Translations under genes and position numbers: made by a program
Notes under the pieces: model-generated
Told to the model about the DNA's origin: nothing
Database searches by the model: none
Seen by the model: the letters and a program-made list of their open reading frames with translations, nothing else
In this document: in pieces, positions 1 to 39,362 of the stretch
Numbering within the stretch: position 1 is the first letter of the stretch
How the letters are laid out: each line of letters starts with the position of its first letter
DNA from: Emiliania huxleyi CCMP1516
Taxonomy: Eukaryota
Reading direction: 5' to 3'
Length of the DNA: 64,000 nt
Assembly (NCBI RefSeq): GCF_000372725.1
Contig: NW_005202368.1
Location: 356,293-420,292 of the forward strand

Positions 1-3000
1 ACTCGCCCTGCCCGTACGCGTCCGTGTACGACCCCTTGGCGCACACCGACTGCTCGGTGGAGCCGGCGGCGGCGAAGTGGCCCGGAGCGGCGTCGGTGCA
101 CTCGCTCGCGGCGGTGAGGTTTGTGGCGTTCGAGTACGACCCGGCGGAGCAAGCAAGGGGGACTTCCGCGGTCCCTCTCGGGCAATAGCGGCCAGCAACG
201 CAGGGCAGCGGCTCATAGGTCGCCTCTGTGGGGCACTGGGAGCCAGCGGGGCAGGGGCCGGCGCAGCTGCTGCTCGACTGGTCCTCGGGGTCGGCCGAGC
301 CGAGGAGGCCGGCGGCGCAGGCGAAGGGGAAGTCCTGCTCGACGGGGAGAAGCGGCAGCTGGTAGAGGCTCTTGCCGAGGAGGGAGGGATCGCCGCCGGT
401 CTCGTTGTTCCAGTTGCACGGCTGCACAAAGGTCGTGTCCTGGCAGTGCCACTCGCTTTTGACGTCGAGGGTGAGCGCGCAATGATCGCGGTGCTCGAGG
501 CAAGCCGTTTGCTTCGGTGTAGGTTTGCCGTTGACGTCGTTGCCGTAAGAGCACGCCTCCCGGTACACCTCGCAGCGCGCGTTTGGCAGCCAGCGGCCGG
601 CCGGGGCGGGGAGGGTGTAGGAGACCTCGCCAGCGAGTAGGAAGACGGAATTCCCCTGACCCTCAGCAGAGCAGCCGCTGATGAGGGTGCCGTCGCTCAG
701 GGAGGTGCGCCCACCCGCCGAGTAAAGGCCGCCGCCAGACTCTGTGGCGATGCAGTTGGAGATGGTTGAGCGGGCCAGGCTGGCTGAGCCCGACGCAACG
801 TACACTGCTCCGCCTCGCCTGGCATTGCAATCGGAGATGGTGGAGTCGGTCACGTTGAGGTCGGTGCCCCACGTGTATGTCGCTCCGCCGTCCTGCCAAG
901 GAGGCGCGACAGGCCTTGTGGAGGGGCTGCAAGCACGAGGGGAGGCGCGGCGAGGCGGGCGGTGACTCTCCTTGCCTTGTCTTGAGCCTACTCACCTCTT
1001 CATGGGCGGTGTGGAGCTGCAAGGAAGTGGCTAGCTCTACGCGGCGCACAAAGTAAGCCGAGCAGCCCGTCGCCTTCGAGCTGGTTATCGAGACCGCACC
1101 GCTCTCAAGCGCGTTGACGACGCCGCCATACTGCGGTTGCGAGGAGAGAGCGGGGTGAGGCAGCCGTGGCCCTCTCCATCGCTCGCCCCGCTGCTATGTG
1201 GTGCAGGCTGCAGGGCGGCGGCTAGCTCTAAGCGGCGCACAGTGGCAGAGCAGTTCCTCAGGGTCGAGTCGATTATCGAGACCGCACCGCTGTTCACCGC
1301 GTAGACGACGCCGCCGTACTGCGGTTGCGAGGAGAGAGTGGGATGAGGCCAGCCGTGTCCCTCTCTATCTCTCGCCCCGTGGCTGCGAGGCGCACCTCGC
1401 CAGCCCAGCAGCCAGTCACGGTCGAGCCGATTATCGAGACCGCACTGCTGTCAGACGCGTGGACGACGCCGCCGTACTGCGGTTGCGAGGAGGGAGAGCG
1501 GGATATTAGGTAGGCGTGCCCTCCCCATCTCTCGCCCTGCTGCTGTCCGGCACTGCAGGGCGGCTAGCTCTAGCGCACATAAGAAGCAGAGCAGTCTCTG
1601 ACCGTCGAGTCGATGATCTCGACGTCGCCTGCGCCTTTCGCGTTCACAGCGCCGCCCCACTGCGGTTGCGAGAAGAAAGCGGGGTGAGACTGCCGTGGTC
1701 CATCTCACGCCCCGCTGCCGTATGGCGCTACTGGAGGTGGCTAGCTCTATGCGGCGCACCCTTTCAGCCGAGCAGCCAATCACGTTCGATCTGGTTATCG
1801 AGACCGCACCGCTGTTCCACGCCCTGACGACGCCGCCGGACTGCGGTTGCGAGGAGAGAGCGGGGTGAGGCAGACGGGCCCTCTATTTCTCGCCCCGATG
1901 CCGTGCGGCGCTGCAGGGCGGGCTGCTAGCTCTGCGCGGCGCACCCGGCCAGCCAAGCAGCCCGTCACGGTCGTGTCGATGAGCGAGACCACACTGCGAT
2001 CCGCGTAGACGACGCCCCCGTGCTGCGGTTGCGAGGAGAGAGCGGGGTGAGGCAGCCGTGGTCCTCTCTCTCTCCGCTGCGACTAGCTCTACGCGGCGCA
2101 CAAAGACAGCCGAGCAATCCGTCACCTTCGGATTAGGATATGAGGTAGACGTGCCCTCTCCATCTCTCGCCCGCTGCCGTGCTGTGCTGCAGGGCGGGCT
2201 GTCAGCTCTACGCGGCGCACATCAGCAGAACAGCCCGTCACGGACGTATTCATTAGCGAGACCGCGCCGCTTTTCCTCGCGTAGATGACGCCGCCGTCCT
2301 GCGGTTGCGAGGAGAGAGCGGGGTGAGGCAGACGGGCCCTCTATTTCTCGCCCCGATGCTGTGCGGCGCTGCAGGGAGGCGGCTAGCTCTACGCGGCGCA
2401 CATCGTCAGCCAAGCAGCTCGTTACGGTCGAGCCGATTATCGAGACCGCACCTCTCTCATCCGTGTAGACTACACCGCCGTCCTGCGGTTGCGAGGAGAA
2501 AGCGGGGTGAGACTGCCGTGGCCCTCTCCATCTCACACCCCGCTGCCGTGCGACGCCTGGGAGGCGGCTAGCTCTACGCGGCGCACCTTGCCAGCCGAGC
2601 AGCCCGTCACGGCCGAGCTGGTTATCGAGACCGCACCGCTGTACCTCGCGTAGACGACGCCGCCGGACTGCGGTTGCGAGGAGATAGCGGGGTGAGGCAG
2701 CCGTGTCCCTCTCCATCTATCGCACCGCTGCCGTGCGGCGCTGCAGGGAGGCGGCTAGCTCTATGTGGCGCACCTCGCCAGCCGAGCAGCTCGTTACGGT
2801 CGAGCCGATTATCGAGACCGCATCGCTTGACCACGCGAAGACGACGGCGCCCTCCTGCGGTTGCGAAGGGCAACCGTGGCCGTATCCATCTCTCGCCCCG
2901 CCGTGTGGCGTTGCATGACGGGCGGATAGTCTCTACACCGCGCACCCGAGCCGTGCTGCGCGTCACGGTCGAGTTGATTATCGAGGCCACACCGCTCACA

Positions 3001-5036
3001 ACCACGCAGACCACGCCGCCCTTCTGCGGTTGCGAGGAGAGAGCGGGGTGAGACTGCCGTGTCCCGCATCTCTCGTCCCACTGCCGTGTGACGCCCTGGA
3101 GGCGGCTAGCTCTACGCGGCGCACATCAGCAGAGCAGCCCGTCACGTCTGAGTCGGTTATCGAGACCGCGCCGCTGCGCCTCGCGTAGACGACGCCGCCC
3201 CACTGCGGTTGCGAGGAGAGAACGGGGTGAGGCAGACGTGGCCCTCTCCATCTCACGCTGCCGTACGGCGCTGATGGAGGCGGCTAGCTCTACGCGGCGC
3301 ACTCGAGCAGAGCAGCCCGACACGGTCGAGCCGATTATCGAGACCGCACCGCTGTCATACGCCCTGACGACGCCGCCGTCCTGCGGTTGCGAGGAGAGAG
3401 CGGGGTGAGGCAGCCGTGTCCCTCTCTATCACTCGCCCCGCTGCCGTGCGGCGCTGGAGGGGTGCGGCTAGCTCTACGCGGCGCACCAAGCCAGCCGAGC
3501 ACCCCTCCACATTCGATCTGGTTATCGAGACCGCACCGCTGTCATACGCGAAGACGACGCCGCCGGACTGCGGTTGCGAGGAGAGAGCGGGGTGAGGCAG
3601 CCGTGGCCCTCTCTACCTCTCGCCCCGCTGCCGTGCGGCGCTGCAGGGCCGGCGGCTAGCTCTACGCGGCGCACCTCGCCAGCAGAGCAGTCCCTCACGA
3701 CCGACTCGATGATCTCGACGTCGCCTGCGCCGTACGCATACACAACGCCACCGTAGGCCGCAATCCCGTTGACGAGCGTCAGCCCCCGCAGGGTGAGGCT
3801 GCAGCCGCCCCAGAGTCCAAAGAGCCAGGTTTCTCCCTGGCCGTCGAGCGTCGCGCCCTCGCCGCTGGTGGCGATGGTCACCTTGATGTTGGAGGTGCAC
3901 TCGATCGGGTATTTCAGTTTGAAGTCCACACTGGGCGGCAGGTAGATTGAGACGTCGGCAGCAGCCCCAACAATCAGGGAGCGGAGATCGTCCTCGCTCG
4001 CCGCGGCGAAATCAAAGCCGGGGACGGCCGGCGGTCGTGGGGGAGCAGACGGGGGGGACGGTCGCGATGGCGGTGGCGGCGGTGATGGGATCTGATATTC
4101 AGCCGCAAGCCGAATGTAGCCGGAGTCATCAAGATGGCCGGGCCCAACTACCACCCAATACTGCTCGCCTTCGGTGAGCTGCAGTCCTGTGATGCGAGAG
4201 TAGTCTTCGTAGCATCCGCTCAGACCCTCCCCGTTGCCGTTGCATGCCACCTGCGTGAGCGTGTCGCAGCTTCCCGTGAAGATGGACAGGTCGGTGCCCC
4301 AGGCTGTGTTGGCCGCGCAGGTATGCAGATCGAGGGGAAACGTGCGCACGTCGGTGAGGCGCAGCCAGAAAACTCTGTCGGTCGCGTCTAGGTTGAATTG
4401 CGTGCCTTGGCACTGCGTTAAGTTATATCCGCCGCTTGGACCCGGGCCAGCGTCGGTTGAGGCAATGTAGACTTCGAAGGAGGCTTCACCCGCCCCACCG
4501 AAGGGTATGGCAGTCTCGCAGGTACTGCCGGGCGGTGGCGGCGACGGCGGCGACGGCGACACTGCACATGCGAGCGGGAGCAGCGCGACGAGAAGCCACG
4601 CGCCGCGGCACAACCCCGTCCGGCACCGCACGAGGCGCCCTTTGCTCCTCCGCCCCGAGGCCGCACCGAAGCGCGGCGGCCGCCACCCGCACAGCCGCAC
4701 GCCGCATGCTCCGAGCAGCAGGAGGACGGCCCACAACAGCTGCTGGGCGCGGTCAGGCGCGGACGAGGGCTCGCGCATGAAGGGACAAAAGGGGGAGGGC
4801 AGGTCGTTGGAGAGCTCCGGGTCCGCGGACGGCTTGTCGGTCTTGTTGGGTTTGCGCGAGGCAGGCGTCGTGAGGGCGAGCGTCGGGTGAAGAGCTCCAG
4901 ACCCGATGAAGAGCTCAATGACGACGTCGGTGCGGTTGCGCGTGTTGATGAACGGGTCCCCGCGGCAGGTAGGTGGGCGAGCGGCGGCGATCGAGGGCGC
5001 CGCGACGAGCATGACGGCGTGCAAGAGGGAAATCAT
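1..5036 (-). CDS. Large secreted/surface protein: signal peptide, Pro-rich linkers, parallel beta-helix (Pmp/pectin-lyase-like GGxxY) repeats, then Cys-rich GCC2/GCC3 (ephrin-receptor-like) repeats; 17 exons in window, 3' end beyond the left edge
   Basis: ATG at 5036 (MISLLHAVMLVAAPSIAAA). Exon 1 runs to 3675, then 15 small phase-0 exons (3487-3567 down to 1050-1130). A long exon from 892 reads DGGATYTWG..GGAVYV..GGGLYS..CPAGSQCPTEATYEPLPCVAGRYCPRGT..CSAGSYSNATNLTAASEC.. and stays open to position 1. Exon 1 may hide further introns. Confidence 0.8.
1030..3674 (-). repeat. Tandem array of ~155-190 bp exon+intron units
   Basis: Recurrent donor GTGCGCCGCGTAGAGCTAG and acceptor CTCTCTCCTCGCAACCGCAG on the minus strand; exons are 78 or 81 bp, one is 24 bp. 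Confidence 0.95.
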
Positions 5037-6206: not shown

Positions 6207-6879
6207 AGCTGGTTGGCGAGATGAAACGGCTGCGGCGGCGCCCGAGCCGACCTCCGCGATGGAGCCTTGGCTGCAGAAGGCCGTGGATGACAAGCTGCTC
6301 ATTAAGAAGAACATCCGCGTGCGCAGTTCGGACGGGTCCAAGGCGATTGCTAAGGCCGTCGGCTACACGTGCGCCAAAGAGGAGGACGAGGAGGAGGAGG
6401 CGGAGGTGGAGGAGGTAGGGGAGGGGGAGGATGCGGATGCCCCCAAGGGAAAGCTCAAGGAGCTGGATGGCGATTACCGCTTTGCGCGGGAGCAGAATTG
6501 CGATCTGCGCTTGTTCGACTTCGAGACCTTCGGAGGCTTTGGAAAGGAGGTTCGCAGCACCCAGAGGGAGGCGGCGAACCAGCTGAGCAACAAACTCTTC
6601 GCATGCTCAGCACCTGGACGAGGTCACATGGACAACCAAGAATTGGCACGGCCTGCAAATGCAGCGTTTGTCGGTCGTCCTCCACACCGCTGTGGCGTGG
6701 CAGACGGTGAACGAGCTAGCGTGTGGGGAGAGCGGCATTGTGCACGGAGCTAAGTGCATTGCCGTTCTTAACGGAGTGGCTTAGGCGGCTCCGGTGGTGA
6801 GCCGGTGTGTGTGCCAGTCCGCGCCAGTCCGCGCCCTCGTCGTGCCAGTGTGCTGTGAGAGAGGCTTGTATTTTAAGAA

Positions 6880-6910
6880 TAGCACGCGCCAGTTCGCACC
6901 TGTGTCGAGC
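6880..6910 (+). repeat. Dispersed repeat core, also at 24240-24270 and 58739-58769
   Basis: Identical 31-mer TAGCACGCGCCAGTTCGCACCTGTGTCGAGC in three places; TTAGGCGGCTCCGGTGGTG is shared upstream at ~6781 and ~58705. Confidence 0.85.
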
Positions 6911-6937
6911 GGCCCGGGCGTGTTTTGTTTTTTCGCG

Positions 6938-8404
6938 ATGTCCACCCCGCCGCGCCGCCGCTCGCGCCGCCTCGCCTCCGCCGCCTCCGCCGCCGCTCCC
7001 TCGCCAGGCACGCCGCCACCCACCCGCCTCCTCGACCTCCCCAGGGAGCTCCTCGAGCGCGTCCTCTCCCGCTTCGACAGCCCCATCGACATCGCTCGCG
7101 CCGCGGCCGTCTCGCTTCTCTTTCACGCCCCGCTCGCGGAGGAGGCCATCCGCTTGTGGGCGCAAGAGCGCGGCTTCGAGCTGCCGGCGAAGCCAGAGGA
7201 TGAGAACTGCGCCGTGCGGTGGCTGTGCTTCGCTGCGTTGCTGCACGAGTCCAACCCGCCGGCGAGGGCGGCGGCAGGCGAACGGCACAGCGTCTTCATC
7301 GACGGCGAGGGGCGGCTCTCGTCGTGCGGTTCAGCGGCACCGGAGGGCGAGGAGGAGGAGGAGGACGACGACGAGGAATCTCCAGGCCTTCTCGGCCACG
7401 GCGAGGGCGTGACGCGGCTCAACACACCGACCCGCCTCCCGTCGACGTTGGGTGATGAGCGCGCCGTGAGCGTGTCGGCTGGAGCCATCCACAGCCTCGC
7501 CCTCACCGCCGACGGCGCTGTCTGGAGCTGGGGTGAGGGCTACGTTGGCCGCTTGGGCCACGGCGACCAGCAGGCTCAGTGGCAGCCCAAGAAGGTCGAG
7601 GCCTTTGCTGGGCGGCGCGTCATCGCTGTTTCGGCGGGAGGATGGCACAGCATCGCCATCACCGCCGATGGCGCCGTCTGGAGCTGGGGCGGTGGAGGTT
7701 TTGGCACGCTTGGCCACGGCGACTGGCAGGACCAGCTGCTGCCAAGGAAGGTCGAGGCCTTCACTGGGCAGCGCGTCGTCGCTGTGTCGGCTGGAGGCTT
7801 CCACAACCTCGCCATCACCGCCGATGGCGCCGTCTGGAGCTGGGGCGGTGGAGGCTTAGGCAAGCTGGGCCACGGCGACGAGCAGGACCAGCTGCTGCCC
7901 AAGAAGGTCGAGGCCTTCGCTGGGCGGCGCGTCGTCGCCGTGTCGGCTGGAGGGTACCACAGCCTCGCCCTCACCGCCGATGGCGCCGTCTGGAGCTGGG
8001 GCGTTGGAGACTCTGGCAGCTTGGGCCACGGCGACCAGCAGCGCCAGCTGCTGCCGAAGAAGGTCGAGGCCTTTGCAGGGCGGCGCGCTGTCACCGTGTC
8101 GGCGGGAGATTTGCACAGCCTCGCCATCACCGCTGACGGCTCCGTCTGGAGCTGGGGCGATGGAGCCTTTGGCAAGTTGGGCCACGGTGACTATCAGAAC
8201 CAGCTGCTGCCCAAGAAGGTCGAGGGCTTCGCTGGGCAGCGCGTCGTCGCTGTGGCAGCTGGAGATAACCACAGCCTCGCTGTCACTGCCGACGATGCTG
8301 TTTATGCTTGGGGGCTGGGCGAGGGCGGCTGCCTTGGCCACGGAGAAGACCTGTCGAACCAGCTGCCTCCCAAGAAGATCGAGGCGTGGGCGCCGGGGCA
8401 GTGA
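6938..8404 (+). CDS. F-box-like + RCC1-repeat (beta-propeller) protein, intronless
   Basis: ATG at 6938. N-terminal LLDLPRELLERVLSRF..DIARAAAVS motif, then about seven 52-aa repeats VSAGxxHSLAxTADGAVWSWGxGxxGxLGHGD..LLPKKVEAF. Confidence 0.9.
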   Translation: MSTPPRRRSRRLASAASAAAPSPGTPPPTRLLDLPRELLERVLSRFDSPIDIARAAAVSLLFHAPLAEEAIRLWAQERGFELPAKPEDENCAVRWLCFAALLHESNPPARAAAGERHSVFIDGEGRLSSCGSAAPEGEEEEEDDDEESPGLLGHGEGVTRLNTPTRLPSTLGDERAVSVSAGAIHSLALTADGAVWSWGEGYVGRLGHGDQQAQWQPKKVEAFAGRRVIAVSAGGWHSIAITADGAVWSWGGGGFGTLGHGDWQDQLLPRKVEAFTGQRVVAVSAGGFHNLAITADGAVWSWGGGGLGKLGHGDEQDQLLPKKVEAFAGRRVVAVSAGGYHSLALTADGAVWSWGVGDSGSLGHGDQQRQLLPKKVEAFAGRRAVTVSAGDLHSLAITADGSVWSWGDGAFGKLGHGDYQNQLLPKKVEGFAGQRVVAVAAGDNHSLAVTADDAVYAWGLGEGGCLGHGEDLSNQLPPKKIEAWAPGQ

Positions 8405-17800: not shown

Positions 17801-20800
17801 GCCTCCAGACGGCGCTGGCCACTTCGGGGGAGGGAGGGCGGCGGCCGCGGGCGGTGGCGGCGGCGACGGGGCGGCGGAGGGGGCGGGCGCGGCGGACGCG
17901 GGCGTCGGGCTTGTCGTCGGCTGCAAGGCGCGGGTGCACCGTCCGGGGGCGAGCTTGAATGAACGAGTTGATGAGCTGATAGAGTACGAATGAGCAGGCG
18001 CGGGTGCACCGTCCGGGCGAGCTGCACGGCCTGAGCGGGCTCTGCGTCGCCGCGAAGTGCGGCTACTACCAGCTGCAGTTCGCAAACGGCCGGCAGGCGC
18101 ACTTTCGAGGCCGCGAGCTGTCGCTGGCGGTGCCCGGGGCGGCGGGCGACGCGCCGCTTCCCGCGCGCCCGCGGAGCGGCGGAGCGCGCCCCTTCATCCC
18201 TCGGGACCCGGCCAGGCCGCAGCGCGAGGCTGCGTGTGCCGCTGGCGCGGCGGTGGAGGCTGCCGCCCGTAGATGCTGGGGGGCGGACATTGTATTCCGA
18301 CGGGCGTTCGAGGCGGCACACGCACACTCGCCCCGTGTTGATCGCCTCTGCATGCACGCGGTGCTGCGACCCCAATGCCACGGAACACCGTGTCTCCCCC
18401 GCGGTAGCAGCGGGCAGCCGTCGCGTCTAAGAGGGTACCCCGCACCGCCAGGCCGCCGTCAAGGAGGAGGTGCGCGGCGAGCACACGCGCAAGCGGAAGC
18501 CGACCCAGCTGTACGACGGCGGCGGCGGGCAGGGCGTCGCGTACGTCCCTCCCGAGCCGTCGGGCGGAGGGAACGTCTCCCGCTCGCGCATCGCGTACGG
18601 CTCGGACGGCCTGCAGCTGGTGATTGGAGCCGCCGTGGTCATTGTCAAGCAGGGCGAGCCTCCCCCCTCCCCCCCCTTCACTCATTCATTCGTTCATTCC
18701 ATTCACTCTATTCACTCCGTTCACTCCATTCACTCGTTTCACTCTATTCACTCCGTTCACTCCGTTCACTCGTTTCACTCTTTTCACTCCGTTCACTCCG
18801 TTCACTCTTTACTTTTCACTCCATTCACTCGTTTCACTCTTTTCACTCTTTTCACTCCGTTCACTCCGTTCACTCTTTACTTTTCACTCCATTCACTCGT
18901 TTCACTCTTTTCACTCCGTTCACTCCGTTCACTCTTTACTTTTCACTCCATTCACTCGTTTCACTGTTTTCACTCCGTTCACTCCGCTCACTCCGTTCTT
19001 CAATCATAGGTCGTCGGCCTCACCCCCGCGCCCCACCGCCCACTAGCGAGGCCGCAGCACGCACCGCAGCGCGCGGCAGCGCGGCCGCCGCCGCCGCCCC
19101 GCCGGCCGCGCCCGACCAAGCCCAAGCCGCCGCGCATCTCGTGGCGCGACCTGGGGGGGGAGGAGGCGGAGGAGGCGCCCGCGGCGGCGCACGAGCACGT
19201 GTACGCGCGCGCCGTCAAGTCTCGGCCACGCGACGTTGGCGAGGCGAGCGAGAGTCCCCGAGAGAGCTTCCCGAGAGAGTACCCGAGAGAGCACCCGAGA
19301 GAGCACCCGAGAGAGCACCCGAGAGAGTACCCGAGAGCACCTCTTCGCCCTCCAGTAATCTCGACCGCACGTAGCACCACGTGAGCAATCGTTCTGATGC
19401 GAGAGCGCCAGCCGCCTCTGGGAGGCATCAGTAGCTCTCGCGTACTCTTTGGTGATCTCGCTTCATCTCAGGCGGTGGAGATCTGGGGAGATATGGGGAG
19501 ATACGATCTCGCTTCATCTCAGGCGGTGGAGATCTGGGGAGATATGGGGAGATACGATCTCGCTTCATCTCAGGTGGTGGAGAGATGGGGAGATATGGGG
19601 AGATATGATCTCGCTTCATCTCAGGTGGTGGAGATATGGGGAGATATGGGGAGATACGATCTCGCTTCATCTCAGGTGGTGGAGATCTGGGGAGATATGG
19701 GGAGATATGGGGAGATACAATCTCGCTTCATCTCAGGTGGTGGAGATATGGGGAGATATGGGGAGATACGATCTCGCTTCATCTCAGGTGGTGGAGATAT
19801 GGGGAGATATGGGGAGATACGATCTCGCTTCATCTCAGGTGGTGGAGATATGGGGAGATATGGGGAGATACGATCTCGCTTCATCTCAGGTGGTGGAGAG
19901 GGTCGAGTACCTCCTCGCGCTCCACCCGCCCGAGGACCACGCCGACCAGCTCGCGTCCGCACACGCACACGCCCCGCCGCTCGCCGCGCTGCACGCCGCG
20001 CCCGAGGGGGCCGGAGGCACGCGCGCCGCCGCCGCCGCCGCCGCCGCGCCGGCGTTCGGGGGCGAGGCGCTGCGCATGTCGTACACGCTGCGGTCTGCAG
20101 GGGGGCGGGGCGGCGGCACGGCCGCCGAGCTGGCCGAGTTCCAGGCGCGGGGAGATTTGGGGGGGATCTGGGGAGATCTGGGGAGATAGTGCCCACCCTC
20201 CAGGTGATACGGGGAGATATGGGGAGGTGAAAGGGAGTGCCCACTCCCCCTCTCTCTCCCTCTGTTTTTCTCTAGTAGGGAAGGGTCCGCGTTTTGAGGT
20301 TTCCCCCTCTCTCCAGGCGCCTTGGTGGGCTGGGCAAAGCCCGGGGTGTTTGGGTCGCTTCCCCCGCCAGTTTTAGTCTGCCGGGGGGGCCCGCACGGGT
20401 TTCCTGGAGGGGGTTTNNNNNNNNNNNNNNNNNNNNNNNNNNNNNNNNNNNNNNNNNNNNNNNNNNNNNNNNNNNNNNNNNNNNNNNNNNNNNNNNNNNN
20501 NNNNNNNNNNNNNNNNNNNNNNNNNNNNNNNNNNNNNNNNNNNNNNNNNNNNNNNNNNNNNNNNNNNNNNNNNNNNNNNNNNNNNNNNNNNNNNNNNNNN
20601 NNNNNNNNNNNNNNNNNNNNNNNNNNNNNNNNNNNNNNNNNNNNNNNNNNNNNNNNNNNNNNNNNNNNNNNNNNNNNNNNNNNNNNNNNNNNNNNNNNNN
20701 NNNNNNNNNNNNNNNNNNNNNNNNNNNNNNNNNNNNNNNNNNNNNNNNNNNNNNNNNNNNNNNNNNNNNNNNNNNNNNNNNNNNNNNNNNNNNNNNNNNN

Positions 20801-22519
20801 NNNNNNNNNNNNNNNNNNNNNNNNNNNNNNNNNNNNNNNNNNNNNNNNNNNNNNNNNNNNNNNNNNNNNNNNNNNNNNNNNNNNNNNNNNNNNNNNNNNN
20901 NNNNNNNNNNNNNNNNNNNNNNNNNNNNNNNNNNNNNNNNNNNNNNNNNNNNNNNNNNNNNNNNNNNNNNNNNNNNNNNNNNNNNNNNNNNNNNNNNNNN
21001 NNNNNNNNNNNNNNNNNNNNNNNNNNNNNNNNNNNNNNNNNNNNNNNNNNNNNNNNNNNNNNNNNNNNNNNNNNNNNNNNNNNNNNNNNNNNNNNNNNNN
21101 NNNNNNNNNNNNNNNNNNNNNNNNNNNNNNNNNNNNNNNNNNNNNNNNNNNNNNNNNNNNNNNNNNNNNNNNNNNNNNNNNNNNNNNNNNNNNNNNNNNN
21201 NNNNNNNNNNNNNNNNNNNNNNNNNNNNNNNNNNNNNNNNNNNNNNNNNNNNNNNNNNNNNNNNNNNNNNNNNNNNNNNNNNNNNNNNNNNNNNNNNNNN
21301 NNNNNNNNNNNNNNNNNNNNNNNNNNNNNNNNNNNNNNNNNNNNNNNNNNNNNNNNNNNNNNNNNNNNNNNNNNNNNNNNNNNNNNNNNNNNNNNNNNGA
21401 AAAGGAGAATCGAGAGAAGGTACAACAGGTGGGTATATGTCAAAAGGGAGAGGATAAGGAAAGGCTAGAAAGTGAGGGAGAGAACAAGGGACGGAAAGAA
21501 GAGTGGAAACGAGGGAGACCGAAGCAGAGAGGAGACGCGGAACGGAGAAAGTAAAAAGAATATGACGTAAGAAAAGGGGAAGAAAAAATCTCCCTCCCCA
21601 TCCCTCCTCTTCGCCTCCCGCCCCGCTTCCTCGGTCCCTCCCCCCCTGAACTTCCCTGAACCTTCCCTGAACCTTCCCGGACCCTTCCTGCAGGGCGGGC
21701 ACACGAACCTGCACTGCGACGTCTCGGACGCGGTCAACGTGATGGTGGACGTGTACGAGGGCGACGACGGCGACGACTCCGAGGATGAGACCGACGAGGC
21801 GAGAGCGGCGCCGAGAGCTGGGGAAGAGAGCCTCATGAGTCCTTGGCTGCTGACGGGGCTGGTGAAAGAGGAGTAGGCGAGCTTGGCCGACGCCGAGTTG
21901 GGCAGCCTCTCCTGCCAGCACGGCGCCGTCGGGGGCATCTTCCGCTGGCGGGGCTGTGAACAGCGTCTCTTCACGCCTCTAGCTGTGAACAGGCGCCATC
22001 TGGGACATCTACCGCTGGCAGGACACCGAGGCGATCCTGCAGCTGCTGCACGCGGTGGCGCGCGAGCGCGACGTCGAGATCACGAGCAACCCGATCCACG
22101 ACCAGCTCTTCTACCTCGACGACACGCTGCGCAAGCGGCTGCGAGACCAGTACAAGGTGCGCGGCTGGCGCTTCGTGCAGCGACGCGGAGACGCCGTCTT
22201 CATCCCGGCGGGCTGCCCGCACCAAGTGCGCAACCTCTCGTCGTGCGTCAAGGTGGCGCTCGACTTTGTGTCGCCCGAGAATGCGCACCGGTGCGTCCAC
22301 CTGACGGACGAGTTTGCAAAGCTGCCGCGCGGCCACCACCTCTCCGAGGACAAGCTGCAGGTCAAGACGATGCTGCTGCACACGATGAAGCACCTCACCG
22401 AGGCGCTCATGCCGCGCAGGCAGCCGGCGGAGGCGGAGGGGGCGGAGGGGGGCGAGGCGGGGGAGGGGGGGGAAGGAGCACCGCCCGCGCCGCCGCCGGG
22501 CGCTAGCAACGGCACGTAG
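11852..22519 (+). CDS. Multi-exon KDM3/JMJD1-type JmjC histone demethylase with BAH, Tudor, Cys-rich zinc finger, PHD and acidic regions (single-gene model uncertain across gaps at 15285-15383 and 20417-21398)
   Basis: BAH: PWLARIEEI..VRWFYRRSDL..EVYL..FFYRYEY (12062-12590). Tudor: VLARYRDGREWYRG..DVRYEDGDFE (13950-14080). CDVCETSILDRHWAC..C..VCLEC (14770-14855). PHD: WISCDVCGRWCHGEC..YTCPLC (15830-15940). JmjC: TNLHCDVSDAVNVMV, GAIWDIYR, PIHDQLFYL, FVQRRGDAVFIPAGCPHQVRNLSSCVKVALDFVSPEN. Stop at 22517-22519. Confidence 0.7.
18678..18997. repeat. Intronic TTCACTC(C)-based tandem repeat; shorter copy at 24974-25171
   Basis: Visible directly in the sequence. Confidence 0.9.
19454..19899 (+). 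repeat. 51 bp intronic minisatellite containing the splice acceptor (9 acceptor copies; 8 in the duplicate at 25665-26059)
   Basis: Unit GATCTCGCTTCATCTCAG-GTGGTGGAGA-TATGGGGAGATATGGGGAGATAC; one unit in each array is 61 bp. Confidence 0.95.
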
Positions 22520-24964
22520 CCCGCATGCAGCCAACTGACGTGTGAATACTACGTAGTCGTCGAGTTATATTCGTAGATGCATCGAGGTGTCGAGGCCAGG
22601 GCTCAGGTCACTTGTCTTCCTTGCACCTTGGGGCAAGGTGGGAGACGAGATTGCCCGAGATCAGGCGAGGCCAGGCGAGATAAGTCTGCAATCCGTCGAT
22701 AGAGACTTACTTTGTCTTTGAAAGGTCGGCGTCGGGCGGGGTCAGGGAAGCCGAGATTGCGCGAGATCACAGGCGAGAATTAGGTCAGCCGAGGACCTCC
22801 GCCCGAGATAGTCCGAGATCGACCGACGGAGGTCGAGAGATAAAGGGATGTCCAGTGTCTAGTCGTGGAGTGACTGCAGCCAAGAGGTGCCGAGATCGGG
22901 TAAGGCTAGGAAGGTGGACACCCTCCCGTCCTCGGAATAATCCTCGTCCGACACGGAATCCGTGGCACATGTGACATGTGCATGTGCATGCACATGTCAA
23001 CCCGGTGTCTGCCTCCTGCTTCGCGGCGCGGTTGGACTCTGTGTGTAGGAGGGAGATGGTCATCAAGCGCTCGTCTGCTGCGCGGCGGTCGACCGCGAAT
23101 CCTTCGCGACTATCTCCTTCAAAACATGCATGGCGGGGCGATGCATTCATTCAGAACGAATACCAACCACGCGCACGCATCCACTGTCTAGTTTCTGCTC
23201 TAAGCCAACGAACGATCTTATATTTGCTACTAATCTAATTAGAGACGATCGAGGGGTCCCGTACCATGCGGAACCGACCCTATCCAGTGCTCAAGTGCTC
23301 AAGATCCTTCGGTCCAAATTACAAAAAAACGCCCCTCAAACATCCTCTTTGCTGTTAGTCAATAGGAGATTGCCTCGCGGGACGTACGAACTGACAGGAT
23401 CTAGTTATCGCGGGTCGGCGACACACAAAATTTGTGGCCTGCTGCCGCACGCCGTCCGAGTCAGAGAGAGCGGCCGCTACCCGAATCGGCGCCGCGCCAA
23501 GCTCGAGCCCGGCCGGCGTGCGAATGGAGGCGGTCCATGCCCCGCGGCTGGGCAAAGCCGCCGCGCTCGCCGTCCGAGTCAGCGCCACGGCGGCGTGCGG
23601 CAGCTCCCACTGTCGCAGGTCGGCGCCGAGCCGCGCGGGCACGGAAGCGGAGAGAGTGCTCCCGCTCCGGAGACCCGACCAGCTCTGCGCCTCCGACGGG
23701 TGTTGCCGAGGGCGTAGCTCCTGCTCACCACGCCACGCCTTGCTTCTTTCTTTGGGGGGGTGGGTGGGGGTGGGGGGGTCGGGGGGGGGCACGTCACATG
23801 AACCTTTTTCCATGCAATGAACAAACACTTTAGAGTTGTTTGGTATTGTAAAAATGTGTGTGAATAAAATCTCTCTCTCTCTCTGCAACTCTCTCTCCCC
23901 CCCGCAATGATTCATGTTCTTAAATTCTTTTTCTTGCACCTCTTCTCTCCTCTTCCCTCTTCGGGCGCCCCAAAATTCTCTCTCTCTCTCCCAAAATAAA
24001 AAAGAATTTTCCAATCAAACTCTATCTATAAAAAAGAATCCCCGCGCGTTGACAAGCAAGGGTCGGGTGGGGTGGGGGTGTCGTCGTCTGTCGAGGGAGG
24101 GCTTCAACCTTGGTTTGGCTGGCCACGGGCACGCCGTAAAAAAAGAAAAAAAGAAAAAACAACCCAAGGGAGGGATGGGAATGACGCCGTGGTGCGAATG
24201 GTGAACGGTTGTTTTTCTTCCGTGTGCCGGTGATAGTACTAGCACGCGCCAGTTCGCACCTGTGTCGAGCCTGTGTGCTGTGAGAAGAGTTGTTTTCTCG
24301 GGTTACACCAATCCTCGCTACCCAACGCGGCCAAAGGATATCCACCTCGAGAACCTCGAGAACCTCGAGTTGTTTTGTTTAAATTCTTCCCAGACCGGCG
24401 GACTCTCTCAGCAGCTCGCGAAAGCGCTAATGCTGCCTGGTGGCCGCCGCTGAAGCGGGTGCGTGTCTACCTCGACCCACGTGCCCCGGCCGCGGCCGGT
24501 GCCTCGGCGCACAGCGCCGCGGGCCGCTCGGGCCGCGCCGAGGACAGCGCCGACGCCCGCCGCTGCCGCTCGCCTGCGCAGCGCCGCCGCTGCCCTGCGG
24601 CACTGCCGCCCATCGCCCGGCCCTCACCGTGCCACCGCACACTCGGATCGCGTCCGACGCCGCCCGCGCCTCTTCCCATAAGGGGGGGGGCGGCCGGCGA
24701 CCGTTTCGCCGGCGGCTGCGGGGTGAGCGGTGTCGGGCGCTGCGGAGAGCGCGTTGCTGGGAGGTGCGGCCGGAGGCGGGTCGGCCGGGGTGTGCGCGTC
24801 GTGGATGCGACACCACCGGTGCGCGAGCCGATCGCCGACACCACCGGTGCGCGCCGCCGCCCCGCCGCCGCCGCCGCCTCCTCCTTCCCTCCGCCACCCT
24901 CGCCACCACCACCGCCACCGACACATTGCCACCGCTCCCCCCCCCCCCCCCCGACCCCAGGCCC

Positions 24965-27900
24965 CCCCCCCCTTTCACTCATACCTTCATTCCAGTCACT
25001 CGTTTCATTCCAGTCACTCTTTTCACTCCATTCACTCTTTTCACTCCATTCACTCGGTTCACTCGTTTCACTCTTTTCACTCTTTTCACTCCGTTCACTC
25101 CGTTCACTCTTTACTTTTCACTCCATTCACTCGTTTCACTCTTTTCACTCCGTTCACTCCGTTCACTCCGTTCTTCGATCATAGGTCGTCGGCCTCACCC
25201 CCGCGCCCCACCGCCCACTAGCGAGGCCGCAGCACGCCCCGCAGCGCGCGGCAGCGCGGCCGCCGCCGCCGCCCCGCCGGCCGCGCCCGACCAAGCCCAA
25301 GCCGCCGCGCATCTCGTGGCGCGACCTGGGGGGGGAGGAGGCGGAGGAGGCGCCCGCGGCGGCGCACGAGCACGTGTACGCGCGCGCCGTCAAGTCTCGG
25401 CCACGCGACGTTGGCGAGGCGAGCGAGAGTCCCCGAGAGAGCACCCGAGAGAGTACCCGAGAGAGTACCCGAGAGAGTACCCGAGAGAGTCCCCGAGAGA
25501 GGTTCCCGAGAGAGCACCCGAGAGAGTACCCGAGAGATTACCCGAGAGCACCTCTTCGCCCTCCAGTAATCTCGACCGCACGTAGCACCACGTGAGCAGT
25601 CGTTCTGATGCGAGAGCACCAGCCGCCTCTGAGAGGCATCAGTAGCTCTCGCGTACTCTTTGGTGATCTCGCTTCATCTCAGGTGGTGGAGATATGGGGA
25701 GATATGGGGAGATATGATCTCGCTTCATCTCAGGAGGTGGAGATATGGGGAGATATGGGGAGATACGATCTCGCTTCATCTCAGGTGGTGGAGAGATGGG
25801 GAGATATGGGGAGATACGATCTCGCTTCATCTCAGGTGGTGGAGAGATGGGGAGATATGGGGAGATACGATCTCGCTTCATCTCAGGTGGTGGAGATATG
25901 GGGAGATATGGGGAGATATGGGGAGATACGATCTCGCTTCATCTCAGGTGGTGGAGATATGGGGAGATATGGGGAGATACGATCTCGCTTCATCTCAGGT
26001 GGTGGAGATATGGGGAGATATGGGGAGATACGATCTCGCTTCATCTCAGGTGGTGGAGAGGGTCGAGTACCTCCTCGCGCTCCACCCGCCCGAGGACCAC
26101 GCCGACCAGCTCGCGTCCGCACACGCACACGCCCCGCCGCTCGCCGCGCTGCACGCCGCGCCCGAGGGGGCCGGAGGCACGCGCGCCGCCGCCGCCGCCG
26201 CCGCCGCGCCGGCGTTCGGGGGCGAGGCGCTGCGCATGTCGTACACGCTGCGGTCTGCAGGGGGGCGGGGCGGCGGCACGGCCGCCGAGCTGGCCGAGTT
26301 CCAGGCGCGGGGAGATTTGGGGGGGATCTGGGGAGATCTGGGGAGATAGTGCCCACCCTCCAGGTGATACGGGGAGATATGGGGAGGTGAAAGGGAGTGC
26401 CCACTCCCCCTCTCCCTCTCTCTCTCTCTCTGCTAGTGAGGTGTCCGTGTTTGACGTCTCCACCTCTCTCCAGGCGCGCTGGCGGCGGGGCGAGCCGGTG
26501 GTGGTTGGGTCGCTCGACCGCGAGTTTGAGCTGCCGTGGGGCCCGCACGGCTTCCTGGAGCGGTTCGGCGCGGAGCAGGTCAACATGATTGACTGCCGCG
26601 ACGGCAAGTCGGTGCACTGGCTGACGCTGGCGCACTTCTTCGCCGGCTACACCAAGCCGTGGACGCGCGCAAAGTGCCCCGACACCTTTCGCCGCATGAT
26701 GCTCAAGCTCAAGGACTGGCCCCCAAACACCGACTTCCGCGACAAGATGCCAGAGTACTTTGACGACCTGATGGAGGCGCTCCCCTTCCCGCAGTACACG
26801 CACCGCGACGGGGTGCTCAACCTCGCGCGCCACTTCCCGCCCGACTGCGTGCCGCCCGACCTCGGCCCGAAGATGTACAACGGCTTTGGGCAGAAGCACG
26901 CGTGGCGGGGGATGGACCCGGCCGTCGCCAAGGTCGGCACAACCCACTCTCTCCGCCACGCTCCCTCGCTCCCTCCGCTCCCCTCCCCTCCCCCCCCGCC
27001 CCTTCCCGTCCCTTCCCCGCCCTCCCCTTCCCTCCCCTCCCCCTCCCTCTCCTCCCCATCCCTCCTCTTCGCCTCCCGCCCCGCTTCCTCGGTCCCTCCC
27101 CCCCTGAACTTCCCTGAACCTTCCCTGAACCTTCCCGGACCCTGCCTGCAGGGCGGGCACACGAACCTGCACTGCGACGTCTCGGACGCGGTCAACGTGA
27201 TGGTGGACGTGTACGAGGGCGACGACGGCGACGACTCCGAGGATGAGACCGACGAGGCGAGAGCGGCGCCGAGAGCTGGGGAAGAGAGCCTCATGAGTCC
27301 TTGGCTGCTGACGGGGCTGGTGAAAGAGGAGTAGGCGAGCTTGGCCGACGCCGAGTTGGGCAGCCTCTCCTGCCAGCACGGCGCCGTCGGGGGCATCTTC
27401 CGCTGGCGGGGCTGTGAACAGCGTCTCTTCACGCCTCTAGCTGTGAACAGGTGCCATCTGGGACATCTACCGCTGGCAGGACACCGAGGCGATCCTGCAG
27501 CTGCTGCACGCGGTGGCGCGCGAGCGCGACGTCGAGATCACGAGCAACCCGATCCACGACCAGCTCTTCTACCTCGACGACACGCTGCGCAAGCGGCTGC
27601 GAGACCAGTACAAGGTGCGCGGCTGGCGCTTCGTGCAGCGACGCGGAGACGCCGTCTTCATCCCGGCGGGCTGCCCGCACCAAGTGCGCAACCTCTCGTC
27701 GTGCGTCAAGGTGGCGCTCGACTTTGTGTCGCCCGAGAATGCGCACCGGTGCGTCCACCTGACGGACGAGTTTGCAAAGCTGCCGCGCGGCCACCACCTC
27801 TCCGAGGACAAGCTGCAGGTCAAGACGATGCTGCTGCACACGATGAAGCACCTCACCGAGGCGCTCATGCCGCGCAGGCAGCCGGCGGAGGCGGAGGGGG

Positions 27901-28002
27901 CGGAGGGGGGCGAGGCGGGGGAGGGGGGAGAAGGAGCACCGCTCGCGCCGCCGCCGGGCGCTAGCAACGGCACGTAGCCCGCATGCAGCCAACTGACGTG
28001 TA
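24965..28002 (+). CDS. Near-identical second copy of the 3' part of the JmjC gene, including the catalytic exons that fall in the gap in copy 1
   Basis: Matches ~18670-22543. Reads WRRGEPVVV..LKLKDWPP..DDLMEALPFPQYTHRDGVLNLA..PDLGPKMY..LHCDVSDAVN..HQVRN; stop at 27975-27977; no 5' exons visible. Confidence 0.8.
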
Positions 28003-30747: not shown

Positions 30748-32564
30748 ATGCGCGAGCTTGTAGTACGCGAGGCTCTCGCGGAGGCAGGCATAAAGCGGCG
30801 GCGCTCCTCCGGCGGCGAGCCGGCGACCCGCCTCTCGGCGCACCTGTTGGAGCTCTTTGAGGAGATCGATTGCGACCCGGCCGTCTGTCGTATCTCCGCG
30901 GAGGAGCTGCGGCGCGGCCTAGAGCGGCTCGGCCTGCCCTGCTCGCCCAACCTCGTCGATGAGATCTTTGACCTCGCCGACGCGAACGCCGACGGGCTAC
31001 TCGACTACGGCGACCTTCTCGTGTACGCGACGGAGAGGGAGGCGCAGGTGGCGCGCACGTTTGCGCGCATCGCGCGCGACGGCCGGATCCGGCGCGGCGA
31101 GCTCCAGCAGGCGCTCGGCGACCTTGGCCTGCGCGTGAGCGCGGAGCAGGCGCAATCCTCAGCCTCTCTCCTCCTCCCTCCCTCCCTCCCTCCCTCCCTC
31201 CCTCCCTCCCTCTCTCCCTCCCTCCCTCTCTCCCTCTCTCCCACCCTCTCTCCCTCGCCCCCCTCCCGATAGCAGCAGTTCTGTTTCAGCGCCGTTCTTC
31301 TTTGACTCGCTCAGGCGCAGTCCTTCTTCGACGCGCTCGACCGCAACGGGAGCGGCACGGTTACCCTGGACGAGTTTGAGCAGTTCTGCTGGCTGCTGCC
31401 TCGCGTCGACGCGCGCGCCGCCTTCGAGAGCTGGCAGAAGCACGTGCCGCTCGACACGGGGCAGGAGCCCGGGCTACGCCTCGTCGTTCATGATCAAGTA
31501 GCTATTCAGTAGTGAATTCATTCATTGATTACTTACTGCGGCAGGAGCCGGGTCTCGGCCTCGTCGCCGAGAAGCCGCTCGCCGACGGCAGCGGCGGCAG
31601 CACGCCAGCCTCTCCGGCGCCGCCGTCGGTGGTGCTCGCGGCGGGCGCTGTGGCCGGCGTAGTCTCGAGGACGGCCACGGCGCCGCTCGACCGGCTCAAG
31701 GTGCTGATGCAGGTTGGGTCGCACGAAGTCGCTTCCGTCGACGGGTCGGTGCGCAAGCTCGGCCCGGTGGCGATGATTGAGCGGCGCGCGGCAGCAAGCG
31801 GCGTGCTGGCGGGCCTGCGCGCCATCTACGCGGCCGGCGGCGTGCCCGCCTTCTTCCAGGGCAACTTGGCAAATGTGGTCAAGATCGTGCCTGAGTCCGC
31901 CCTCAAGTTTTGGGTGTACGACTGGGTCAAGCGGCTCAGTGCGAGGGACTACTCGCGCCCTACCGCAAGCGAACGGCTCCTTGCGGGCGCAGCTGCCGGC
32001 GCGGCGTCCTGCACTGCCATCTACCCCCTCGAGGTAGTCAAGACGCGGATGGCAATCGCTCGGGCCGGGGAGTATGAGGGGATCGGCCACTGCCTCCAGC
32101 GCACCGCGAGGGCGGAAGGGCTGCGCGCGCTCTACAAGGGACTTCCGGCCTCACTCGCAGGCATCATCCCCTTCTCCGCCGTCGACCTCGCCCTCTTCAA
32201 CACGCTCAAGGAGTGGCTTGCGCGCTACCGCCGCCGAGAACCGGACGTGCTCACTCTCCTCGGCTGCGGCGCCCTCTCGTCGACGGTCGCTCAGCTCGCC
32301 ACCTACCCTCTCGCGCTGGCGAAGACGCGCCTGCAGGCGGCGGGCATGCCCGGCTACCCGCAGAGGTATAACGGCCTCGCCGACTGCCTACGCCAGACGT
32401 ACTCAGACCGCGAGGGTGGCGGCGTCCGCGCGCTCTACCGCGGCATCCTGCCAAACATGCTCAAGGCGGTGCCCGCGATCTCGATCTCGTACGTCGTCTT
32501 CGAGACGAGCAAAAAGGCGATGCTCTCGCGGATCGACGACCAGCGGAGAGCAGAGCCGCGCTAG
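30748..32564 (+). CDS. Calcium-binding mitochondrial carrier (SCaMC / ATP-Mg:Pi carrier type, SLC25 family), EF-hands plus three carrier repeats
   Basis: EF-hands DANADGLLDYGD and DRNGSGTVTLDEF; carrier signatures PLDRLK, PLEVVKTR, PLALAKTR; introns 31150-31314 and one ending at 31544. Confidence 0.88.
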
Positions 32565-32724
32565 CCGCCCGCGCTAGCCGCCCGCGCTTGCCGCCTTGCG
32601 CCGGGATGTGTGGGCTAGATCGCTGATCGGTCCATATAGGGCAGGGTCGCTGCCAAAAGCCCGATTTTACCTATCGCTGCCAAAAGCCCGATTTTACCTT
32701 AGACCAGCACACAGAGTATTTCAG

Positions 32725-33747: not shown

Positions 33748-33919
33748 TGCGATATGGCGTCGCCTGACGCCAGCGACTCTGCACCACCTGTCGAACACGG
33801 ACCACTCCGACGGACGACCCCGCGTCGGGAGTTGCACCACCTCCGACACCGACCACTCCGACGCGCAACTTCTTCAACTCCGGCCGACCGACGGTCGTTC
33901 GACGCCAAAACCTTCGATG

Positions 33920-39088: not shown

Positions 39089-39362
39089 GTGTCGTGCGAG
39101 GGAGTTTGCTTGTAAAATTCTTTTCCATTCAAAGAATTTTGAAGTGCCCCAAACCGTCCCAGATTGTGTACCCCGCCGCCTTTGACAAATGCTCACCGCG
39201 CTGACCGCTACAGCAGCGCCGGCGCCACGCCGCCTCGAGGCTTACGCTTAAGGTCTCCGGGAGCTCCGCGTGCCGGGTTGTAGTACAATACAAGAAAATG
39301 GCCGAGATTCCGAAATTCTTGTTCTCAGCGCCGATCCATCTGGTTAAATTCTTTTTCTCGCG

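What the first reader, a model, noticed from the sequence alone, without database searches (positions are those of the whole stretch)
893..3760. Candidate diversity-generating surface receptor: one beta-helix coil per phase-0 exon, with homogenised introns and hypervariable positions
Seen: 16 introns with a shared donor block (15 of them 77-110 bp, most also sharing the acceptor block) separate 14 exons of 78/81 bp plus one of 24 bp, all phase 0, so any exon could be skipped, duplicated or swapped in frame. Example exons: SGGVVFAYDSGAVSITRSNVEGCSAGL, WGGVVYARRSGAVSITDSDVTGCSAD, DGGVVYTDERGAVSIIGSTVTSCLADD, YGGVVNALESGAVSITSSKATGCSAYF. The scaffold (GGVV, SGAVSI, CSA) is largely fixed while positions 1, 6, 8, 9 and the last 1-2 residues vary, often to Y/W/R/D. 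Known: one-repeat-per-exon shuffling is described for brown algal LRR-ROCO candidate immune receptors. Inference: an analogous variable recognition system built on a beta-helix with a Cys-rich stalk, with conserved introns acting as recombination substrates.
Basis: partly seen in the sequence, partly recalled or inferred. Interest (0 to 1): 0.85.

Follow-up and report, generated by a model that had tools for sequence, protein, structure and literature searches.

The report
Exon-cassette beta-helix receptor of bloom alga
A spliced gene, likely of the bloom alga Gephyrocapsa (Emiliania) huxleyi, has 14 short exons that each encode one coil of a predicted beta-helix with six positions under diversifying selection, and because its close relatives end in predicted membrane spans and a TIR signalling domain it is likely a fast-evolving surface receptor.

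Summary
The array is real and spliced. RNA-like runs show GT-AG junctions at 13 of the 16 predicted introns. The "24-bp exon" is a deletion remnant skipped inside one 198-nt intron, so the gene has 14 cassette exons and 15 introns. The six variable positions (1, 6, 8, 9, 26, 27) fit dN/dS of about 5-8, both in the window's 14 units and in 24 units from other loci. A spliced paralog folds as a right-handed beta-helix (pLDDT 93), one exon per coil. The same intron occurs in 16 of 16 fetched loci, always before such a coil; paralogs carry 1 to about 7 cassettes. The closest paralog continues into Cys-rich repeats, hydrophobic spans and a TIR domain; the window ends before that part. Not supported: gene-specific intron homogenisation (intron interiors differ as much as silent exon sites; units are no closer within the gene than between genes) and exon-skipping isoforms (none among the junctions shown). 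Verdict: a TIR-coupled receptor family likely diversified by inherited unit duplication, recombination and selection. It works like brown-algal ROCO and Tetrahymena LRR arrays, on a different fold. Ligand and immune role are untested.

The parts
3675..5036 (-). Long 5' reading frame (start codon and any introns here unverified): hydrophobic leader, beta-sandwich-like domain, Pro-rich stalk, beta-helix cap and first coil
   Evidence: Open frame; first Met at 5036 and hydrophobic stretches; contigs of RNA-like run X4 match parts of 3930-4889 with 0-1 differences
4086..4535 (-). N-terminal domain resembling PPC / galactose-binding-domain-like beta-sandwiches; paralogs carry CUB-like, MAM or other domains in this slot
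   Evidence: ESM Atlas feature hits at 0.96 (PF04151 in 32%, PF23759 in 49% of members; a lead only); no Pfam hit; weak CUB hit in L010; UniRef names CUB and MAM for P0149, P0150
3675..3755 (-). Coil 0, the 'first-coil' type (AGDVEII) at the end of the 5' exon
   Evidence: junction 3567->3675
3487..3567 (-). Cassette exon 1 (81 nt)
3303..3380 (-). Cassette exon 2 (78 nt)
3125..3202 (-). Cassette exon 3 (78 nt)
   Evidence: upstream junction seen, downstream junction (intron 3024-3124) not among the joints shown
2946..3023 (-). Cassette exon 4 (78 nt), lacks the conserved Cys
   Evidence: covered end to end by a spliced contig in X5 and X6
2774..2854 (-). Cassette exon 5 (81 nt)
2587..2667 (-). 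Cassette exon 6 (81 nt)
   Evidence: one contig spans both flanking junctions
2402..2482 (-). Cassette exon 7 (81 nt)
2221..2298 (-). Cassette exon 8 (78 nt)
2023..2220 (-).
   Evidence: Junction 2022->2221 in X5 and X6; deletion alignment; one unspliced contig over 2078-2271 at low depth in X10
1945..2022 (-). Cassette exon 9 (78 nt)
1760..1840 (-). Cassette exon 10 (81 nt)
1579..1659 (-). Cassette exon 11 (81 nt), a first-coil-type unit sitting inside the array
   Evidence: 70% amino-acid identity to coil 0 but 53-67% DNA identity to the other cassettes
1396..1476 (-). Cassette exon 12 (81 nt)
1241..1318 (-). Cassette exon 13 (78 nt)
1050..1130 (-). Cassette exon 14 (81 nt)
893..1049 (-). 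Last intron (157 nt): family donor block, different 3' half
   Evidence: junction 891->1049 in X4, X5, X6, X10
1..892 (-). Post-array exon: three fixed coils, then Cys-rich repeats; cut by the window edge, so any membrane spans and TIR lie outside
   Evidence: homologs with PF07699 and PF13229; closest locus L009 at 69% over 248 aligned residues

Best explanation
This is a spliced member of a multigene family that likely encodes surface receptors, with a predicted right-handed beta-helix built one coil per phase-0 exon and, in its close relatives, Cys-rich repeats, predicted membrane spans and a TIR domain, and it is likely diversified by inherited duplication, loss and exchange of exon-plus-intron units together with selection on one predicted binding face. 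Shown: splicing of neighbouring exons, phase 0, codon-level diversifying selection at six positions, different cassette numbers in paralogs, TIR in paralogs. Inferred: that this gene also ends in a membrane region and TIR; that the six positions line one groove (the first strand of each coil and the loops on either side); that unequal crossing-over or gene conversion between the repeated units is the mutational route; that ligand binding, most plausibly to variable microbial or viral surface glycans or proteins, triggers TIR signalling.
For: Splicing: 14 CT..AC junctions, 13 with 31 or more letters on the shorter side in at least one run; two runs of one study carry most, runs of two further studies carry 6 and 2; the two such junctions listed are absent from X1 and X2. 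Selection: M2a against M1a LRT 57.5 (14 window units, omega 7.6) and 95.2 (24 other units, omega 6.4), the same six sites in both; 23.9 and 54.4 with multi-nucleotide changes allowed; 0 of 102 recombining null simulations reached 57.5. pN at those sites is 0.67 against 0.215 in intron interiors; column entropy correlates between the two sets (rho 0.83). Fold: pLDDT 92.9, Z 27.5, rmsd 2.9, 270 aligned to Rhombotarget A, and Z 23-25 to beta-helical lyases and tailspikes; each repeat gives one strand-turn cycle. Family: 16 of 16 loci have the intron before a coil; 1, 1, 2, 3, 4 and about 7 internal cassettes in the six distinct loci where both array ends are held, against 14 here; TIR_2 above Pfam's cut-off in 3 of 5 loci scanned, just under in 1, no hit in 1. 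Exchange: units are no closer within the gene than to other loci (exons 0.278 against 0.262, introns 0.154 against 0.147; 12 of 14 exons have their nearest neighbour outside, about 9 expected from set sizes); a first-coil-type exon lies inside the array; a dead remnant records a deletion.
Against: The gene's own 3' end is outside the window and no genome is held. The folded protein is a paralog (P0069), and the face assignment rests on secondary structure and in/out alternation, not coordinates. Direct recombination tests are weak: 0 of 8 Mantel tests significant, PHI-like p = 0.03, 0.06, 0.20; a star-like burst of duplications fits too. Positions 26, 27 and 1 flank the splice junction where indels occur, which can inflate omega; GC-driven codon bias can lower dS; the multi-nucleotide test was not calibrated by simulation, and one single-nucleotide null replicate reached 24.9. 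Short-read metagenome contigs may collapse repeats and understate cassette numbers. The one published transcript that looks related (cogent9830_i1) shows only a fall (log2 -3.0) as its significant change in the infection time course row.
Confidence: 0.6

Rival explanations
1. Same architecture and evolution, but the receptor is not for defence: it reads self or partner surfaces (mating or ploidy-stage recognition, cell or coccolith polysaccharide adhesion) or senses environmental glycans.
For: Beta-helices bind many polysaccharides and also proteins; self-recognition loci also show diversifying selection (recalled); the related published transcript is not clearly induced by virus.
Against: A cytoplasmic TIR with a Glu at the expected catalytic position (read by eye) and repeated turnover at the same six sites match described defence receptors (PMC3341825 passages); G. 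huxleyi membrane TIR genes are proposed as infection receptors (PMC12489294, section 20).
Confidence: 0.2
2. One reading: an active diversity generator in which cassettes are skipped by alternative splicing or rearranged within a clone, using the shared introns as recombination substrates.
For: All exons are phase 0; the intron ends are far more conserved than a splice site seems to need (p about 0.065 over 20-28 nt); a 61-nt identical tract is shared by two introns whose flanking exons are only 72-74% alike; brown-algal ROCO genes have such isoforms (PMC11378527 passages).
Against: All 14 canonical junctions shown join neighbours at similar contig depth (24-83 in X5 and X6); the non-adjacent joints shown have non-canonical ends or inserted letters and look like paralog transcripts; units differ by 15-33% from their nearest neighbour in the gene, so there is no sign of very recent copying of whole exons. 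Contigs drop rare variants and 7 joints were hidden, so rare isoforms are not excluded.
Confidence: 0.12
3. Neutral tandem expansion of a structural stalk or spacer, with relaxed constraint at exposed loop positions and no selection for new specificity.
For: Intron interiors and silent sites have diverged alike; exposed loops vary in most solenoids; one unit has decayed; no direct recombination signal.
Against: The six sites exceed the neutral yardsticks about threefold in raw distance and reject M1a in two independent sets; other predicted outward-facing positions (14, 16, 19, 21) vary less (0.4-2.0 bits against 2.3-3.4).
Confidence: 0.06
4. The shared intron is an introner-like mobile element that happened to colonise this gene.
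For: Near-identical introns in many copies; 2,235 contigs of run X1 laid on 5.4 kb at 90%.
Against: In 16 of 16 fetched loci the intron sits at the same point of the same coil, and it does not occur elsewhere in the 64-kb window.
Confidence: 0.02

Closest known systems
Brown-algal LRR-ROCO and NB-ARC-TPR candidate immune receptors (PMC3341825, PMC11378527; passages read)
   Same: One solenoid repeat per symmetric exon, inactivated exons inside introns, variable repeat number, positive selection at a few sites of one face, a signalling domain behind the repeats.
   Different: Here the solenoid is a right-handed beta-helix, predicted extracellular, coupled in paralogs through Cys-rich repeats and 7-8 hydrophobic spans to TIR, not LRR/TPR with ROC-COR or NB-ARC; exons are 78/81 nt in phase 0 (ROCO LRR exons are 72 nt, phase 2 in PMC11378527); no skipping isoforms seen here.
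Tetrahymena LRR genes with 90-bp exon arrays (PMC6564038; passages read)
   Same: Large family, variable exon number among paralogs, exons often closer to exons of other genes than to their neighbours, ectopic recombination proposed.
   Different: LRR rather than beta-helix, phase 2, thousands of genes, link to a REP retrotransposon; the terms 'positive selection' and 'alternative splicing' do not occur in that paper's main text.
G. huxleyi membrane TIR genes expressed during EhV infection (PMC12489294; abstract, sections 19-20, passages, rows of supplementary file 1)
   Same: TIR_2 behind several predicted membrane helices. Transcript cogent9830_i1 (8 helices, TIR_2) has the same SHxWxTGQD-type TIR start and, translated by eye from the first 400 letters shown, a cap resembling this family's beta-helix cap.
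   Different: The main text has no occurrence of 'beta helix', 'pectin lyase', 'ephrin' or 'intron'; no exon arrays, selection or family structure in the parts read; cogent9830_i1 is at most a distant relative and was not aligned.
Toll-like receptors (recalled)
   Same: Extracellular repeat solenoid, Cys-rich juxtamembrane part, cytoplasmic TIR.
   Different: TLRs use LRRs and one membrane helix; these paralogs use a beta-helix, several hydrophobic spans, and a second unclassified domain after TIR.
Right-handed beta-helix fold: Rhombotarget A (9cdv, 9cdu), PL6 lyases, tailspikes; Pfam Beta_helix and Chlam_PMP weakly
   Same: Fold and GG(A/V)(I/V)-type coil start.
   Different: At most 17% identity; the ladder position holds Cys; no catalytic residue is conserved across coils, which argues for binding rather than lyase chemistry (inference).

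Membership tests
Exon-per-repeat shuffled receptor arrays (ROCO / Tetrahymena kind) | One structural repeat per symmetric, same-phase exon, spliced in vivo | tested here: met
Exon-per-repeat shuffled receptor arrays (ROCO / Tetrahymena kind) | Repeat number differs among paralogs; dead exons in introns | tested here: met
   1-7 internal cassettes against 14 (short-read contigs may collapse repeats); remnant at 2102-2125
Exon-per-repeat shuffled receptor arrays (ROCO / Tetrahymena kind) | Positive selection at a few codons of the repeat | tested here: met
   own ML implementation, two independent unit sets
Exon-per-repeat shuffled receptor arrays (ROCO / Tetrahymena kind) | Selected sites on one ligand-binding face | tested here: inconclusive
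   DSSP of a paralog model places them on the first strand and its two flanking loops; coordinates not available
Exon-per-repeat shuffled receptor arrays (ROCO / Tetrahymena kind) | Recombination between units or genes | tested here: inconclusive
   No gene-specific clustering, misplaced first-coil unit; direct tests weak
Exon-per-repeat shuffled receptor arrays (ROCO / Tetrahymena kind) | Exon-skipping isoforms | tested here: inconclusive
   None among 15 of 22 joints shown; contigs drop rare forms
LRR-ROCO proteins | LRR repeats followed by ROC-COR | tested here: not met
   Repeats fold as a beta-helix; no LRR, ROC or COR family in Pfam scans of window frames and paralogs
Toll-like receptors | LRR ectodomain and a single membrane helix | tested here: not met
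   Beta-helix model; 7-8 hydrophobic peaks before TIR in P0069, P0101, P0111 by a crude Kyte-Doolittle scan
Membrane TIR receptors of G. huxleyi | TIR domain after membrane spans in this very gene | not testable with these tools
   Window ends inside the Cys-rich region; no genome held; met in closest paralog L009
Membrane TIR receptors of G. huxleyi | TIR NADase or signalling activity; response to infection | not testable with these tools
   Needs assays and stranded expression data
Introner-type mobile introns | Near-identical introns at unrelated positions in unrelated genes | tested here: not met
   16 of 16 loci in the same coil context; none elsewhere in the window; no whole-genome scan possible

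The most novel reading that the evidence does not exclude
G. huxleyi keeps a genome-wide pool of interchangeable beta-helix coil cassettes that recombine through a shared intron fast enough to give strains, or clones within a bloom, new TIR-coupled receptors for EhV or bacterial surfaces: a Toll-like, VLR-like recognition repertoire built on a beta-helix in a single-celled alga, and a candidate basis for strain-specific virus resistance.
Probability: 0.25. Interest if true: 0.9.

Novelty: new variant of a known kind. Interest (0 to 1): 0.7.

Why it matters
How G. huxleyi recognises its giant virus and bacterial antagonists, and why strains differ in resistance, is open; PMC12489294 points to TIR genes but, in the parts read, not to a variable ectodomain. 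This family supplies a testable candidate with six selected positions per coil and countable cassettes. It would also show that the one-repeat-per-exon route to receptor diversity, described for LRR and TPR arrays, has arisen on a beta-helix with TIR output in another eukaryotic lineage. Automatic gene models break these genes (EMIHUDRAFT_220409, _232686, _358045 are fragments or read into the intron), which may be why they are overlooked. Nine full-text searches found no description of the family; subscription journals and bioRxiv supplements were not searched.

Tried and rejected
No whole genome was held, so the gene's 3' end, the family size and allele comparisons could not be examined. Pfam found nothing in the window's two long frames, and the exon profile found nothing in the PDB by sequence. 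A single-sequence fold of P0009 failed (pLDDT 41) and was not used; alignment A2 was misaligned and not used. The first codon-model run had a stuck optimiser; only its entropy comparison is used, and the models were refitted. Summed contig depth over the intron in X1 is several hundred times that of unique parts, but the tool states this is no copy number, so no family size is claimed. DNA-like runs X1 and X2 gave only short contigs across the array, so cassette order in other strains could not be read. Non-adjacent joints such as 1316->1583 and 1318->2588 were rejected as skipping isoforms because of non-canonical ends or inserted letters. A regular-expression check for the TIR catalytic motif matched nothing because the pattern was wrong; the Glu was read by eye. 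L008 and L015 were dropped from unit counts as near-duplicates of L004 and L014; exons of other loci outside 75-87 nt or failing the parser (for example the 165-nt double coil of L013 and the long exons of L007) were left out of the 24; two sparse alignment columns were dropped. Earlier-findings look-ups by genome and by sequence returned nothing.
Full report
Observation. The gene lies on the minus strand. A long 5' frame ends at 3675 in a first repeat. Then 16 GT..AG intervals separate 14 exons of 78 or 81 nt and one 24-nt piece, all in phase 0, and a long exon runs from 892 off the window's edge. The acceptor block occurs 13 times, only here, against 0.23 by chance.

Organism. Two proteins with six of these repeats are E. 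huxleyi CCMP1516 gene models, a paralog cluster contains EMIHUDRAFT_358045, and the best named hit of a neighbouring carrier gene is the haptophyte Diacronema. The source is therefore likely Gephyrocapsa (Emiliania) huxleyi; this is an inference.

Splicing. Twelve public runs hold part of the stretch; seven were laid. At 98% likeness, 14 of the 15 joints shown (22 in all) have CT..AC ends and fall on predicted sites. X5 and X6 (one study) carry most of them, X10 six and X11 two (two other studies). The intron at 3024-3124 is not among the rows shown. The fourteenth junction, 2022->2221, removes 198 nt including the 24-nt piece, at a depth like the rest. That piece aligns as a unit that lost about 70 nt across its acceptor and exon. 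So the expressed gene has 14 cassettes and 15 introns. The run kinds are not on record; X4-X6, X10 and X11 are taken as RNA because they skip introns, while X1 and X2 show neither of the two canonical junctions listed. No canonical junction shown skips an intact exon, but contigs drop rare forms.

Introns. Introns average 85% identity and exons 72%, but the excess lies in the intron ends (p 0.064 and 0.069); the middle (0.215) is as diverged as four-fold exon sites (0.177). Window introns and exons are no more alike among themselves than they are to those of other loci. The intron is thus a family-wide part of the duplicated unit, not something homogenised within this gene. Why 20-28 nt at each end are so conserved is unexplained; splicing constraint and conversion both remain possible.

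Family. A scan of metagenome contigs with the acceptor block returned 16 loci (14 distinct). In all 16 the match is followed by a GG(V/A) coil, which argues against a mobile intron. Where both array ends are held there are 1 (L003, L005), 2 (L001), 3 (L012), 4 (L014) and about 7 (L013) internal cassettes; L013 has two coils fused in one exon. Downstream the paralogs have Cys-rich repeats (PF07699), a hydrophobic region and TIR: TIR_2 passes Pfam's cut-off in L009, L012 and L014, is just under it in L002 and was not hit in the L003 pieces. L009 is the closest to the window gene in the post-array exon (69%). Transcript-derived P0069 shows the spliced layout with four variable coils, 7 hydrophobic peaks and a TIR-type segment. 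The N-terminal slot varies: PPC or galactose-binding-like here (lead only), CUB-like or MAM in others.

Selection. Whole-exon pN/pS is 1.23, with pN 0.67 at the six named positions and 0.17 elsewhere. In my own codon-model fit (F3x4, FastTree topology, one branch scale), M2a beats M1a by 57.5 in the window's 14 units and by 95.2 in 24 units from other loci, with omega 7.6 and 6.4 and the same sites 1, 6, 8, 9, 26, 27. With multi-nucleotide changes allowed the values are 23.9 and 54.4, omega about 4.9, and site 6 drops below 0.9 in the window set. Of 102 null simulations with recombination, 4 exceeded 6, the largest was 24.9 and none reached 57.5. Caveats: junction indels at 26, 27 and 1, codon bias, and no calibration of the multi-nucleotide test.

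Structure. Residues 15-331 of paralog P0069, folded with a 28-row alignment, give pLDDT 92.9 and pTM 0.91 and match right-handed beta-helices: Rhombotarget A at Z 27.5 (rmsd 2.9, 270 aligned), lyases and tailspikes at Z 23-25. Each repeat is one strand-turn cycle. Positions 5-8 form the first strand, 9-12 the following turn, and 26, 27 and 1 the loop and bridge before it. By in/out alternation 6 and 8 point outward. The selected sites would then cluster on one sheet and its flanking loops, the groove that binds ligand in many beta-helices (recalled); predicted outward positions on the other sheets vary less. This is inferred, not measured.

Recombination. Distance matrices of intron and exon segments do not correlate significantly (0 of 8), and a PHI-like test is marginal (p 0.03, 0.06, 0.20). 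Indirect signs are the variable cassette number, a first-coil-type exon inside the array, the deletion remnant, a 61-nt identical tract in two introns with dissimilar exons, and 12 of 14 exons having their nearest neighbour in another locus (about 9 expected from set sizes). Nothing places breakpoints in introns specifically.

Mechanism. Most likely the exon-plus-intron unit is duplicated, deleted and exchanged by inherited unequal recombination; phase 0 keeps every outcome in frame; and selection drives change at six surface positions, giving a family of TIR-coupled receptors with different binding surfaces (0.6). A non-defence recognition role is the main rival (0.2), then an active splicing or somatic generator (0.12), neutral expansion (0.06) and a mobile intron (0.02).

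Known and new. [quoted passage not shown] Membrane TIR genes of G. huxleyi are reported (PMC12489294: abstract, sections 19-20, passages, some rows of supplementary file 1; other tables and figures not seen), and one listed transcript resembles this family by eye, but that paper's main text does not mention beta-helices or introns. Nine literature searches found no description of this family. Verdict: a real, expressed, positively selected cassette array; a new variant of a known kind; interest 0.7.

Noticed in passing
window 6785-8404 (+) and about 39284-40804 (+): Two related intron-less F-box-like plus RCC1-repeat genes, 82% identical over about 1 kb, each with 156-nt tandem repeats; Pfam RCC1 (7 stretches) and weak F-box in the first.
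   Followed up: partly
window 18798-22543 and 24971-28001: A duplicated block (93-99.5% identity in pieces of 0.5-1 kb) around an assembly gap; may be a segmental duplication or an assembly artefact.
   Followed up: no
window about 20400-21400, 45600-46500, 53600: Runs of N (2,060 in all); the low-GC bins in the composition profile are these gaps.
   Followed up: yes
window 31494-33873: Two frames on opposite strands that both look like mitochondrial carrier genes; the minus-strand one was searched and is PF00153.
   Followed up: partly
window about 60407-64000 (-): Long frame with ankyrin-like repeats, recognised by eye, cut by the window end.
   Followed up: no
L013:1221-1385 (-): Two coils fused in one 165-nt exon, suggesting precise intron loss within a paralog's array.
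   Followed up: partly
L009:2574-3200 (-), L002:3614-4138, L003:925-1452 (-), L014:5212-5832: A second conserved domain after the TIR in paralogs, with no Pfam hit in the three scanned; may be a degenerate second TIR-like fold.
   Followed up: partly
window 2078-2271: One unspliced low-depth contig in X10 covers the dead cassette: intron retention, pre-mRNA or DNA.
   Followed up: no
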